Below are positions 24,001 through 27,000 of a stretch of DNA of 64,000 nt, piece after piece. Location: NCBI GenBank assembly GCA_963662405.2, contig CAXXKT010000002.1, positions 352,001 through 416,000 of the forward strand, in the 5' to 3' direction. A program made the position numbers. Positions within the stretch are counted from its first letter, which is position 1, and every line of letters begins with the position of its first letter. Source of the stretch: Syntrophales bacterium (GTDB lineage: Bacteria > Desulfobacterota > Syntrophia > Syntrophales > UBA2210).

Positions 24001-27000
24001 CATTCCAGCCATTCCATCTTGCATTTCATCCGACACAAGCAATGTTTTCGAGGCACAGAGGGCATGTGCTGTTTTTCGGCTCAAAATTTGCTTAGAAGAC
24101 GCTGCGCGTCCATAATCCGTGTAAGGAGAAAGAGATGATCAAACTGGAGTTTTACGATCCATCCGGTAGTATCGAGGTCACGCAGTCCCATGCACTCAGG
24201 CTTGATTCGCTTTCCGGAAAATGTATCGCTTTGCTCAGCAACGAACAATGGCAGGCTCACCGTACGTTACCGCTGATCAAGACAATGCTGGAGGAGGATT
24301 TTCCGGACTGCTTCGTGCTGCCACCGGACACTTTTCCCCAGGGCCTTGCCGCCATTGCCAGTGAGGAAACCGCCCGGCTCGTGAAGGATAGAGGTGTCGA
24401 TGCGGTTATTATCGGTAACGCGGCCTGAGGATCGTGCGCTATAGCATGCGGCCGTGCAGCCGCAAGAATTGAAACTCAGGGTATTCCAACGGTCATCCTG
24501 ACCCGCGCTGATTTTGTGGGCGTCATGAAAAATGCCCTTTCGGGCCTGGGGCTTGCGCCGGAAGCGGCCATGGTCACGTTCCCGATGGATTTGTTTTTGC
24601 CCGACAGCGATATTGCACCGATTCGAAAACGTCGTCAGGAATTCTACGATGGTCTTACCCGATGGCAACCGGAATCGGTTTCGGACACATCGGCAACCGG
24701 CACACTGCTGAGTGTCGAGGGAAAAAATTATGAAGACGCTCTGGTCAAAGCCAATCATCTGTTCGTCACCAACTTATGGAGCGACGGCTTGCCTCTTTTG
24801 CCGGCAACCCGCGAGCGTGTAAACTGGATTTTACAAGGCGCTGCCCTGCCCCGCACCCATATCATCGGCACGTTTCCGCCGCGCGGCGCCGTCGTTACGG
24901 TTGAGTCCTGCGCGATTTCACTGGCCATGGCCGGGGGCAGGCCCGAATACCTGCCGGTGCTGATTGCCGGTGTGGAAGCCTTTCTCGATGCCCGCTCCGG
25001 CGCCGAGCACCTGCAGGCGGCTTCCGGCAGCGCCTTCCCCGTCATCATTGTCAACGGCCCGATCGGCACGCAGATCCGGCTCAGTTCTTCTTTCGGCTGC
25101 CTCGGACCGGATCCGCAAAGACCCGCCGGCGCCGGCATTGGACGTGCGCTACGTCTTATGCAGCAAAATCTGGGAGGGGCACTGCCCGGCACGGGAACCA
25201 TGGCTAACTTCGGCCCCATGCGTTACACGAATGTGATATTCGCCGAAGATGAAGAAGGCTTGCCCCAGGGCTGGTCGCCCCACGGAACGGAACGCCACGG
25301 CTATGCGCCGGGTACAAACTCGGTGTCGCTTGCCTTTGCCAACGGCGCCGCCAACATCAGGCGGCGCGGCGCAAGAAAAGAAACCCCGCAGGAAGAGGCC
25401 CTGCAGGGAATGCACCGCATGGCGGATTTCATGCGCACGCCCAATGTAGCCAACCTGCCCGGTTATGAAAACGGCACTCCCGGTATTCTCATGATTCCTC
25501 AGGTTGTTGCCCACATGATGACAACGCTGGGATGGACAAAGCGATCCATGCGCGAATTTCTGTGGGAACAGGCCAAGATACCGATGGAACATTTACAGCG
25601 CTCGGGCGCTCTTCAATGGATAGAAGTTGACGCCGGACCGGCTCAACTTGCCAGCCTGAATCTCGATCCCTGGCCGATCTGTGCCAGTCCCGACCAGATG
25701 ATTATTGTCTGCGCGGGTGGAAACCATCCGACCAACAGTTGCTGGCTGCAGGGGTACTGCCCGCGCGTTATCGGACGCGAGATTCGTGTCCCGGAGGAAT
25801 TTGATCATCTGCTTACGGCTGCCAATCGCGATTTGGGTTGCGGCGCGGACGCCTGCATGATCTACTAATACAGCCACGTTTCAAAAGAGAATCGATCATC
25901 CATTATTGTGATATGACATAACCGGTAAGGGAAACATGATCAATTATTCTTCCATCTTTGTCGCTTTCATCATCGTGGGGTTCATTGCAACCGCATTTTT
26001 TGTTTCCGGTCGCAAGTCCAAACGGGCGGTCGGCGAGGTGCTCAGCATCTTCGAAAGGCACAACGCCATCGGAGTCCAAGAGGCCAAGATGGTAGACGAA
26101 CTGGGGTTAGCCTCTCCCACACTCGTAGCCAGCTTCAACAGCATGAGGGACTATAAACCCGGCGCTCTGAATACCCTGATACAGATGGATATCGTTCGCG
26201 TCACGGATGAAGGAAAGCTGTATGTTTCCGCGCGCAGTCTTGAGGAACGAAAAAAGAAAAGGAGGAATGATAAAAAGTCTTCATGAGCTGTGAATTGGGA
26301 TACACTGTTTGAAACTTTATAGTTTTGGGCAGCAAGGCTACTGTTCGACATGTTTACTGGTCTTCGAGACCGCAAAGGAGAATGAAGAGCTGTAGCCGCA
26401 ACATTCAATGATCTTCGAGATCGAATAGGAGATTGGGACCAATTCACCTGACAGGCGCTGTCCAAGATGTGAGGAGGCGTTCTATGAAGATGAGTATCGG
26501 GGTTGACCTTCACAAGACGCAGTTTACCGTTTGTTGTTTGAGTGAAGATCGGAGTGTTCAGGAGTCGGGCATCTACCCGACGACTGATCGAGGTTACCGG
26601 GCATTTATCATGAAGGTGTCCAACTGGAATGAGGGCGGTTACGAGGTCACGGCAGCGGTGGAATCAACAGGGAACACCCGACACTTTCGCAACCGGTTTT
26701 TGAAGGCGGGGATTGAGGTCAAGATAGTGAACACCTTGAAATTCAAGGTTGTAAATGAGTCAGTAAAAAAGACTGACAAGCATGATTCCCGCACATTGGC
26801 TGAGTTTCTTGAGAAAGATATGCTTCCCGAGTCCATTCTTTGTTCGCAGGAAAGCGAGGACATTCGAAGGCTTCTCAAGTCACGTTCTGTTCTGGTGAAA
26901 GCTTTGGTATCCTTGAAAAACCAGATACACGGTTTATTGCTTGGATATGGGATAGAGAGTCGGCGGGGACAGCTGCAGAGCAAAAAAGAAAGGCAGCGAA

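What a model noticed while it worked through the whole genome (the two positions that open the first line are those of the whole stretch)
24135..25868. UGSC-family selenoprotein domain fused to a 430-aa domain of unknown family
Gene calls g02994 (97 aa) and g02995 (447 aa) join through an in-frame TGA into one 577-aa protein whose N-terminal 148 residues match the UGSC (seleno)protein family with the name-giving motif U-G-S-C at the TGA, while residues 150-577 match no family. I read it as a selenocysteine enzyme in which the small UGSC redox module, related to the selenoprotein B subunits of proline/glycine reductases, is wired to an unknown catalytic domain, next to CoA-transferase and enoyl-CoA hydratase genes. 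If true it gives a first functional context (acyl-CoA metabolism) for the uncharacterised UGSC family.
Evidence so far: Read-through and motif ...VIIGNAAUGSCAIACG...; Pfam UGSC 8.5e-17 over residues 7-148, NCBIfam UGSC_fam 2e-10 and weak PrdB 6e-4 (77-123); no Pfam family and no meaningful PDB sequence match for 150-577 at E<=1. Neighbours g02992 enoyl-CoA hydratase, g02993 CoA_transf_3. Sec machinery present (tables). In 40 other Syntrophales genomes sampled, 3 have the full-length fused protein in one frame with exactly one in-frame TGA (78% identity over residues 2-576; 29-30% over 6-539 in two genomes of another family), and one has only the C-terminal domain (34%, 214-495, no stop): fusion and TGA are kept across deep divergence.
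(Added by a program. Inside this text positions count along the whole contig: contig position 352,001 is position 1 of the stretch shown here. "Call 12" and the like, gene names such as g00115 and contig names such as C1 are that model's own, and its searches are not shown. The text may have been shortened before it was handed on; [...] marks where a part breaks off. The agent that wrote the report below was given it as the finding of a first reader that could run no searches.)

Follow-up and report, generated by a model that had tools for sequence, protein, structure and literature searches.

The report
UGSC selenoprotein fused to unknown domain
Two neighbouring gene calls are really one 577-residue selenocysteine protein of the known but uncharacterised UGSC family, joined to a large partner domain that no database describes and that travels with UGSC in many bacteria.

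Summary
Window 24135-25868 (+) is one 577-codon gene with a single in-frame TGA at codon 98, in the motif U-G-S-C.

The TGA most likely encodes selenocysteine:
- 71 of 78 located sequences (77 related loci plus the window) carry TGA at that codon, and 7 carry TGC.
- The only degenerate codons with a fixed third base across 72 Sec forms lie in a hairpin stem 22-39 nt after the UGA.
- The genome holds tRNA-Sec, selA, selB and selD.

The N-terminal domain (residues 1-180) aligns Sec-on-Sec with GrdB. The C-terminal domain (191-577) has no Pfam, NCBIfam or PDB match, although the model is confident.

Three first-reader claims need correction:
- The fusion is not rare: 334 species genomes hold a relative.
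- It was published in 2008 as "UGSC/Unknown_1".
- This scan has already reported the family eight times on other DNA.

Rare variants carry an FtrB disulfide reductase instead.

The acyl-CoA context recurs only in a minority (16 of 80 loci).

My reading is a two-module selenol/thiol reductase with an unknown substrate. It is a new member of a known kind.

The parts
24123..24128 (+). Shine-Dalgarno-like AAGGAG, 6 nt before the ATG
   Evidence: read directly
24135..25868 (+). single 577-codon selenoprotein gene (stop TAA/TAG included); gene callers split it at the TGA
24135..24674 (+). N-terminal UGSC domain, residues 1-180: three-layer alpha/beta (flavodoxin/Rossmann-like) fold, with Sec at the start of helix 99-113
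24426..24428 (+). TGA = selenocysteine codon 98 (U-G-S-C; C101 and C105 follow)
   Evidence: TGA in 71 and TGC in 7 of 78 located sequences; identical in an independent metagenome contig
24447..24464 (+). candidate SECIS hairpin: stem 24447-24452 / 24459-24464 (UGCGGC/GCCGCA), loop CGUGCA at 24453-24458, which begins 27 nt after the U of UGA
   Evidence: fold; hairpin present in all TGA forms; third bases of codons 105, 106 and 109, all inside the stem, are invariant in 72 of 72 Sec forms while loop and flank wobbles vary
24687..25838 (+). C-terminal partner domain ('Unknown_1'), residues ~185-568. Family-wide core: D217, T225, T255, E257, N307, R337, E371, E373. Clade-specific Cys: C259, C322
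25839..25865 (+). flexible C-terminal tail, low pLDDT, with C569 and C574 (D-L-G-C-G-x-x-x-C-x-I)
   Evidence: C574 invariant and C569 in at least 90% of the 21 aligned sequences (window protein included); pLDDT 55 in the last block
22490..23662 (-). CoA-transferase family III gene, divergent neighbour; orthologues sit beside the fusion gene in L010, L079 and L089
21669..22463 (-). enoyl-CoA hydratase/isomerase gene, co-oriented with the CoA-transferase
19870..21474 (+). DDE transposase bounding the patch on the left
26433..27596 (+). IS110-family transposase bounding the patch on the right

Best explanation
The gene encodes one 577-residue selenoprotein built from two modules that work together as a selenol/thiol-dependent reductase.

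Shown:
- The TGA at codon 98 is read as selenocysteine.
- The N-terminal module is a UGSC-family domain, homologous to the Sec-bearing part of glycine reductase protein B.
- The C-terminal ~390 residues belong to a very large, undescribed family that is fused to UGSC, or encoded next to it, in most loci examined.

Inferred:
- U98 and C101 form a redox-active selenenylsulfide couple at the start of a helix.
- That couple delivers two reducing equivalents into the active site of the C-terminal domain.
- That site is built from the family-wide polar core D217, T225, T255, E257, N307, R337, E371 and E373. The active-site cysteines of this clade, C259 and C322, sit beside those motifs.
- The flexible C-terminal C569/C574 tail may shuttle electrons to or from an external reductant.
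- The substrate is unknown. The neighbours (TctC carboxylate-binding proteins, CoA-transferase III, ECH, acyl-CoA dehydrogenase, TauD, MmgE/PrpD) point to a small carboxylic acid or its CoA ester.
For: One gene, Sec-decoded:
- Single in-frame TGA.
- TGA in 71 and TGC in 7 of 78 located sequences, which are 77 of the 80 loci plus the window.
- Full-length Cys forms of 573-621 aa align end to end.
- Across 72 Sec forms, 13 of 577 codons have an invariant third base. Eight are Trp or Met. The others are the TGA itself, the last codon, and codons 105, 106 and 109. Those last three are exactly the wobble bases inside the predicted hairpin stem.
- tRNA-Sec, selA, selB and selD are present.

Module relationship:
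- 65 of 80 metagenome loci found with stand-alone C-domain proteins also hold a UGSC domain. It is fused in frame in 17.
- In 47 it is a separate ORF on the same strand. By my reading of the distances, 34 of those lie directly upstream and 11 directly downstream.
- It lies on the other strand in 1.
- 56 of the 65 UGSC domains carry exactly one in-frame TGA.

Redox reading:
- hhalign of the UGSC profile against GrdB gives Prob 92.7%, E 4.4e-7, with Sec on Sec.
- In P0213 and P0271 the same C-domain is fused to a ferredoxin:thioredoxin-reductase catalytic domain instead.
- A TrxR-like Pyr_redox_2 gene sits directly upstream, on the same strand, in 3 loci.
- Conserved cysteines of the C-domain lie next to the core motifs, but at different positions in different clades: C259/C322 here, MAGC and YTYC in the classical clade.

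Structure: the full-length model has pLDDT 94.7 and pTM 0.94, which implies a defined domain interface.

Substrate hint.
Against: - No activity, cofactor or substrate has been shown for any member. The literature I could search still lists UGSC as uncharacterised.
- I could not read model coordinates, so the distance from U98 to the C-domain core is unknown.
- No cysteine is conserved across the whole C-domain family.
- Two fused forms lack cysteines at the compared sites of both domains (P0198, P0256). One more lacks them in the UGSC motif only (P0235). The core chemistry therefore need not be redox.
- 15 of 80 C-domain loci have no UGSC nearby.
- The gene context is heterogeneous. An acyl-CoA enzyme lies within 3 kb in only 16 of 80 loci.
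- The window's own context is bracketed by two IS elements.
- The SECIS fold energy is no better than that of shuffled sequence (z -0.01).
Confidence: 0.55

Rival explanations
1. GrdB/PrdB-like chemistry. Sec98 is the catalytic nucleophile. It attacks a substrate carbon held by the C-terminal domain and reductively cleaves a C-N, C-S, C-O or C-halogen bond alpha to a carboxyl or thioester, and C101 resolves the Se-C adduct. The C-domain would then be a functional, non-homologous replacement for the pyruvoyl subunits GrdE/PrdA.
For: Sec-on-Sec profile alignment to GrdB (Prob 92.7%). Similar local motif: UGSCAIACG here against UGTCTRCGA in GrdB. Like GrdB with GrdE, UGSC is almost always paired with one particular partner, either adjacent or fused. 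The contexts suggest a carboxylate or CoA-ester substrate.
Against: The homology covers only about 71 columns around the Sec. The GRDB Pfam model does not match the protein. The C-domain shows no similarity to GrdE (Prob 0.1%). No Ser or Cys conserved across the family could give a pyruvoyl group. The alternative fusion partner, FtrB, is a disulfide reductase and not a carbon nucleophile. The GrdB/PrdB mechanism is recalled from the literature and was not tested here.
Confidence: 0.22
2. The C-terminal domain is a non-redox enzyme (hydrolase, lyase or isomerase acting on a carboxylate). The UGSC module is a redox switch or sensor that turns it on or off, rather than a source of electrons for catalysis.
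Against: Sec is costly and is typical of catalytic redox sites. Clade-specific cysteines sit beside the core motifs. The independent fusion to FtrB and the operonic TrxR-like genes fit an electron supply better than regulation.
Confidence: 0.15
3. One reading: the enzyme is a dedicated step of an acyl-CoA pathway, working with the neighbouring CoA-transferase and enoyl-CoA hydratase.
For: The window's CoA-transferase is 85%, 55% and 48% identical to those beside the fusion gene in L010, L079 and L089, against at most 37.5% to its 14 paralogues in the same genome. The ECH is 72% and 42% identical, against at most 34%. Same-strand spacing is tight in L011 (16 nt), L013 (199 nt) and L015 (451 nt). 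The genome holds only 15 CoA_transf_3 copies in 3.8 Mb, so chance adjacency is unlikely.
Against: Only 16 of 80 close loci have any acyl-CoA enzyme within 3 kb. Rokubacteria loci carry TauD and Burkholderiales loci carry TctC. In the split-gene clade, CoA-transferase appears in 2 loci of 80. In the window the genes are divergent and flanked by IS elements. Burkholderiales genomes are rich in these families; that point is recalled, and I measured no background rate for them.
Confidence: 0.2
4. The TGA is a true stop or a sequencing error, and the two ORFs are separate genes or a pseudogene.
For: Gene callers output two products. The fold energy of the downstream RNA is not exceptional.
Against: TGA sits at the same codon in 71 sequences from many phyla and is replaced only by TGC. 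Protein conservation continues across it. Synonymous sites in the hairpin stem are constrained. The Sec machinery is present. The sequence is identical in an independent metagenome contig.
Confidence: 0.02

Closest known systems
UGSC-containing selenoprotein and the 'UGSC/Unknown_1 fusion' (Zhang & Gladyshev 2008, PMC2398784, text and Figure S1A; Pfam PF24696; NCBIfam NF041046)
   Same: Same U-G-S-C motif and same Pfam family. The paper's Unknown_1 alignment (AVNGVMAGCRPEYMPVL...VNGP) matches AISLAMAGGRPEYLPVLIA...VNGP here. Function is unknown in both.
   Different: This is a divergent clade. It falls below the NCBIfam cut-off (40.8 against 125 bits). It has G instead of C in the MAGC motif, its own cysteines C259, C322 and C574, an extra C105, and a C-terminal Cys tail. 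Its SECIS hairpin has a different position and sequence from the classical clade's. The paper suggested a Trx-like fold, whereas the model is flavodoxin/Rossmann-like.
Glycine/sarcosine/betaine reductase selenoprotein B (GrdB) and D-proline reductase PrdB
   Same: Profile-profile homology over about 71 columns, with Sec aligned on Sec. The architecture is also alike: a beta-strand, then U-G-S/T-x, then a helix. Both are paired with a dedicated partner polypeptide.
   Different: Only the Sec-bearing sub-domain is shared, and the GRDB Pfam model does not match. The partner is unrelated to GrdE/PrdA. The window's own genome has no GRDB match at E<=0.001.
Ferredoxin:thioredoxin reductase catalytic subunit (FtrB) fusions to the same C-domain (P0213, P0271)
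   Same: The same C-terminal family is joined in one chain to a small dithiol/disulfide redox module.
   Different: The redox module is unrelated to UGSC and sits at the C-terminus. The fusion is rare, at 2 of the 120 best hits listed.

Membership tests
Bacterial selenoprotein (general criteria) | In-frame TGA aligned with Cys in homologues | tested here: met
   TGA in 71 and TGC in 7 of 78 located sequences; Cys in all 20 aligned full-length homologues
Bacterial selenoprotein (general criteria) | SECIS hairpin shortly downstream of the UGA | tested here: met
   Hairpin at 24447-24464. The three wobble bases inside the stem are invariant in 72 of 72 Sec forms, while loop and flank wobbles vary. 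The fold energy alone is not exceptional. No Rfam match.
Bacterial selenoprotein (general criteria) | Sec-insertion machinery in the genome | tested here: met
   tRNA-Sec 75.6 bits, selB 363 bits, selA 607 bits, selD 202+165 bits, all over their cut-offs
Bacterial selenoprotein (general criteria) | Selenium actually incorporated in the protein | not testable with these tools
   Needs 75Se labelling or mass spectrometry
UGSC family (Pfam PF24696) | HMM score above the gathering cut-off | tested here: met
   62.2 bits against 25, residues 7-148
UGSC family (Pfam PF24696) | U/C-G-S-C motif | tested here: met
   U98-G-S-C101
UGSC_fam equivalog (NCBIfam NF041046) | Score above the curated cut-off of 125 bits | tested here: not met
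   40.8 bits. Distant fused forms P0210 and P0246 score 112-120 bits, also below the cut-off.
GrdB/PrdB selenoprotein B | Match to the family models over their length | tested here: not met
   No PF07355 match at E<=1. TIGR04483 scores 19 bits against a cut-off of 300, and TIGR01917 12.5 against 602.
GrdB/PrdB selenoprotein B | Sec position homologous to the GrdB Sec | tested here: met
   hhalign Prob 92.7%, E 4.4e-7, 71 columns, Sec on Sec
GrdB/PrdB selenoprotein B | Pyruvoyl partner subunit (GrdE/PrdA, PF09338) | tested here: not met
   C-domain against GrdE: Prob 0.1%. No Gly_reductase Pfam match in the protein.
Thioredoxin-fold oxidoreductases (as suggested for UGSC in PMC2398784) | Trx fold of the Sec-bearing domain | tested here: inconclusive
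'Unknown_1' partner-domain family (no database name) | Motifs W-x-D-G-L-P-x-x-P-x-T, M-A-G-x-R-P-E-Y, V-N-G-P, F-A-E-x-E | tested here: met
   All are present. phmmer finds 3359 cluster representatives at E<=1e-3. Same motif as in Figure S1A of PMC2398784.

The most novel reading that the evidence does not exclude
UGSC plus its partner domain form a previously unrecognised, widespread two-component selenoenzyme. A GrdB-type selenocysteine module has been re-deployed onto a catalytic subunit with a fold that has no solved relative, replacing the pyruvoyl subunit of the clostridial reductases. It would carry out a reductive bond cleavage on carboxylate or acyl-CoA substrates in aerobic soil and freshwater bacteria as well as in anaerobes. 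That would finally assign a reaction type to one of the most abundant selenoprotein families of aquatic metagenomes.
Probability: 0.25. Interest if true: 0.75.

Novelty: new member of a known kind. Interest (0 to 1): 0.4.

Why it matters
In the Global Ocean Sampling selenoproteome, UGSC was the fifth-ranked selenoprotein family, with 255 sequences (PMC2398784, Table 2). A 2026 review still lists it as functionally uncharacterised (PMC13188914).

Three results turn a bare motif into a testable enzyme system:
- UGSC almost always travels with one particular undescribed domain.
- That domain can instead carry an FtrB disulfide reductase.
- The Sec loop is homologous to that of GrdB.

Natural Cys forms exist in culturable bacteria such as Variovorax. 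They can be expressed without the Sec machinery.

On the practical side, gene callers split this gene wherever it carries Sec. Annotations therefore hide both the selenoprotein and the fusion.

Tried and rejected
- Sequence search of the PDB with a 77-sequence profile gave only one chance hit, at E 0.7.
- Foldseek and VIA-align of the full model returned only generic flavodoxin/Rossmann-like matches to the N-domain.
- Pfam and NCBIfam scans of 20 and 13 distant C-domain relatives found nothing for the C-domain itself.
- The ESM Atlas returned only clusters of 'hypothetical protein'.
- Rfam found no match in 23500-26500.
- The promoter/terminator scan showed no convincing signal for the gene, and no terminator-like site just after 25868.
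- The fold energy of the RNA after the UGA equals that of shuffles (z -0.01). Mean synonymous entropy over codons 99-112 is not lowered either (1.18 against 1.20). Only the position-specific analysis was informative.
- No RNA holder was listed among public runs, so there is no expression evidence either way.
- C-domain against GrdE, and C-domain against GrdB: no similarity.
- The own genome has no GRDB match at E<=0.001 and no second UGSC.
- The third-gene search in the 80 split-module loci found nothing shared by more than 9 loci (TctC).
- The 13 'alone' C-domain loci I re-scanned have no recognisable domain in the upstream in-frame stretch, apart from a neighbouring TetR fragment in L134.
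- I could not obtain model coordinates, so inter-domain distances were not measured.
- Complex prediction was not used, because the two modules are fused here.
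Full report
**1. The observation**

Reading window 24135-25868 (+) with TGA as U gives a 577-residue protein. 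It has one recoded codon, U98 (nt 24426-24428), in the motif VIIGNAAUGSCAIACG. Under table 11 the frame falls into ORFs 24135-24428 (97 aa) and 24516-25868. The 447-aa fragment is what the public protein collection holds (P0002).

AAGGAG lies six bases before the ATG.
- Pfam UGSC: 8.5e-17 over residues 7-148, with nothing else at E<=1.
- NCBIfam UGSC_fam: 2.1e-10, but only 40.8 bits against a cut-off of 125.
- PrdB: 6.4e-4 over residues 77-123.

**2. Is the TGA selenocysteine?**

A scan of one genome per species found 334 stretches encoding a relative, of 391 that matched a pattern. I kept the best 80 loci. By motif I located the codon in 77 of the 80 loci plus the window. It is TGA in 71 sequences (window included) and TGC in 7. 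Full-length Cys forms of 573-621 aa align with the window protein from end to end at 57-64% identity.

Downstream of the UGA, every TGA form can form the hairpin GCGGC-N6-GYCGC. In the window this is 24447-24464, and the loop CGUGCA begins 27 nt after the U. That spacing fits the bacterial SECIS range as I recall it from the bSECISearch work; I did not check that range here.

Fold energy is no better than that of shuffled sequence (z -0.01). Mean synonymous entropy over codons 99-112 is not lowered. A position-by-position count is informative, however. Across 72 Sec-form genes, only 13 of 577 codons have an invariant third base:
- eight are Trp or Met;
- one is the TGA itself;
- one is the last codon;
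- the other three are C105 (TGC), G106 (GGC) and A/V109 (GCC/GTC).

Those three are exactly the wobble bases inside the stem. The wobble bases of the loop (codons 107, 108) and of the flanks (104, 110) vary freely.

The genome has tRNA-Sec, selB, selA and selD, all above their cut-offs. A contig from an unrelated metagenome study covers 24282-24486 with no differences. I regard Sec decoding as settled, short of protein chemistry.

**3. How common, and how new**

The full protein finds 2091 clusters at E<=1e-3 among 8000 candidates scored. The C-terminal part alone finds 3359 representatives of 50%-identity clusters. Relatives come from Deltaproteobacteria, Burkholderiales, Alphaproteobacteria, Rokubacteria/Methylomirabilota and other groups. 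'Few genomes' was therefore an effect of sampling one order.

The fusion is in print. In Zhang & Gladyshev 2008 (PMC2398784) I read the passages on UGSC and supplementary Figure S1. The paper describes a 'UGSC/Unknown_1 fusion', and the printed alignment carries the same MAG-x-RPEY...VNGP motif. A 2007 paper and a 2026 review, of which I read passages only, call the family uncharacterised. This scan has already reported the same family eight times on other DNA.

**4. The N-terminal module**

I took four GrdB genes from genomes of the same phylum. The UGSC profile aligns to them with Prob 92.7% and E 4.4e-7 over 71 columns, Sec on Sec. The local motifs are alike: UGSCAIACG here, UGTCTRCGA in GrdB.

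**5. The C-terminal module**

Modelled alone it reaches pLDDT 93.8, yet it has no convincing solved relative.
- Foldseek gives a best match of E 6.8e-4 at TM 0.24 to class I fumarate hydratase.
- Pfam, NCBIfam, a PDB sequence search and the ESM Atlas give nothing.
- It is not related to GrdE (Prob 0.1%).

Across 77 diverse members a polar core is kept: D217, T225, T255, E257, N307, R337, E371 and E373. No cysteine is universal. The window's clade has C259, C322 and C574. The classical clade instead has the Cys of MAGC and a Cys in YTYC. In both clades these cysteines lie next to core motifs.

**6. UGSC and this domain are a module**

I scanned metagenome contigs with an alignment of stand-alone C-domain proteins and kept 80 loci. 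I then searched the loci with a UGSC profile, reading TGA through. The results were:
- 65 of 80 loci hold a UGSC domain.
- It is fused in frame in 17.
- It is a separate ORF on the same strand in 47. By the distances I read, 34 lie directly upstream, 11 directly downstream and 2 further off.
- It is on the other strand in 1.
- 15 loci have none. Thirteen of those were re-scanned and show no other domain upstream.
- 56 of the 65 UGSC domains carry exactly one in-frame TGA.

In that clade the SECIS is a different hairpin, at columns 15-22 and 26-33 after the UGA. It is 92.6% paired, 5 of 8 pairs show changes on both sides, and the covariation score is 0.213 against 0.094 in shuffles (0 of 500 reach it).

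Two proteins (P0213, P0271) carry an FtrB-type disulfide-reductase domain on the same C-domain instead of UGSC. In three loci a TrxR-like flavoprotein gene sits 12-18 nt upstream of UGSC on the same strand.

**7. Context**

In the window the gene is divergent from CoA-transferase III and ECH, and the patch is bracketed by two transposases. Within 3 kb of the gene in the 80 close loci:
- an acyl-CoA enzyme (CoA-transferase III, acyl-CoA dehydrogenase or ECH) occurs in 16;
- TctC occurs in 29;
- TauD occurs in 7.

For a sub-lineage the link looks real. The window's CoA-transferase is 85%, 55% and 48% identical to those beside the fusion gene in L010, L079 (Rhodospirillaceae) and L089 (Variovorax). 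It is at most 37.5% identical to its 14 paralogues in the same genome. The ECH behaves likewise: 72% and 42%, against at most 34%. The common theme across clades is the catabolism of carboxylic acids, not acyl-CoA chemistry as such.

**8. Reading**

Shown:
- It is one Sec-containing gene.
- It has a UGSC module with a GrdB-type Sec loop.
- It has an undescribed partner domain.
- The two modules are tightly linked.

Inferred (confidence about 0.55):
- The U98/C101 couple supplies reducing equivalents to the partner domain's active site.
- The clade-specific cysteines, and perhaps the flexible C569/C574 tail, act as a relay.
- The substrate is a small carboxylate or its CoA ester.

Rivals:
- Direct GrdB-like Sec nucleophile chemistry (0.22).
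- A non-redox enzyme under redox control (0.15). It is favoured by fused forms without cysteines in both domains (P0198, P0256).
It overlaps with the main reading.
- A true stop codon (0.02).

**9. Verdict**

The gene is a new member of a known but uncharacterised selenoprotein family.

Noticed in passing
L090-L169 (metagenome loci), e.g. L150:4662-4727: The classical UGSC clade has its own SECIS: an 8-bp hairpin 15-33 nt after the UGA, with a three-base apical loop (most often GUG). It has clear compensatory changes, such as GGA/UCC to GCA/UGC. 5 of 8 pairs show changes on both sides.
   Followed up: yes
L115:1046-2050, L141:3281-4423, L107:3404-4387: A Pyr_redox_2 (thioredoxin-reductase-like) gene lies directly upstream of the UGSC reading frame on the same strand in three loci. 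It is a candidate NAD(P)H-linked reductant for UGSC.
   Followed up: partly
P0213, P0271: The partner domain is fused at its C-terminus to a ferredoxin:thioredoxin-reductase catalytic (FtrB) domain instead of UGSC. It gives a weak match to NCBIfam 'FtrB family double-selenoprotein'.
   Followed up: partly
P0167, P0243, P0267; L130:319-2327: Proteins of about 700 aa have two matched stretches of the partner domain, and some loci have two partner-domain genes in tandem.
   Followed up: no
G000:C3:552135-553065 (outside the window): The selD match carries one in-frame TGA (SelD is itself a selenoprotein) and is reported as two pieces that overlap by five bases. This may be a frame change or a splitting artefact.
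   Followed up: no
45 of 151 genomes of the same phylum, e.g. L175-L182: Many small ORFs of about 150-250 aa match only positions ~200-345 of the GRDB Pfam model, without in-frame stops. They look like a stand-alone GrdB-like small-protein family in this phylum.
   Followed up: no
L171-L174: The UGSC profile also aligns to GrdE residues 294-379 (hhalign Prob 80.8%, E 1.3e-5). This suggests GrdB, GrdE and UGSC share one alpha/beta sub-domain.
   Followed up: no
window 27739-30036: A 611-aa minus-strand ORF has a SIR2 domain at residues 378-556. It overlaps by about 825 nt a plus-strand 428-aa ORF with an MCP signalling domain. One of the two N-terminal extensions is probably not real.
   Followed up: no
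L010:4109-5569 (-): In the closest relative (82% identity), a 485-aa ORF with no Pfam match lies between the CoA-transferase and the fusion gene. It is absent from the window, where a 472-bp spacer holds only a 75-aa ORF with no family.
   Followed up: no
window 19870-21474 and 26433-27596: Two different IS transposases (DDE_Tnp_1 type and IS110 type) bracket the ECH/CoA-transferase/selenoprotein patch, so the local gene order may be recent.
   Followed up: no
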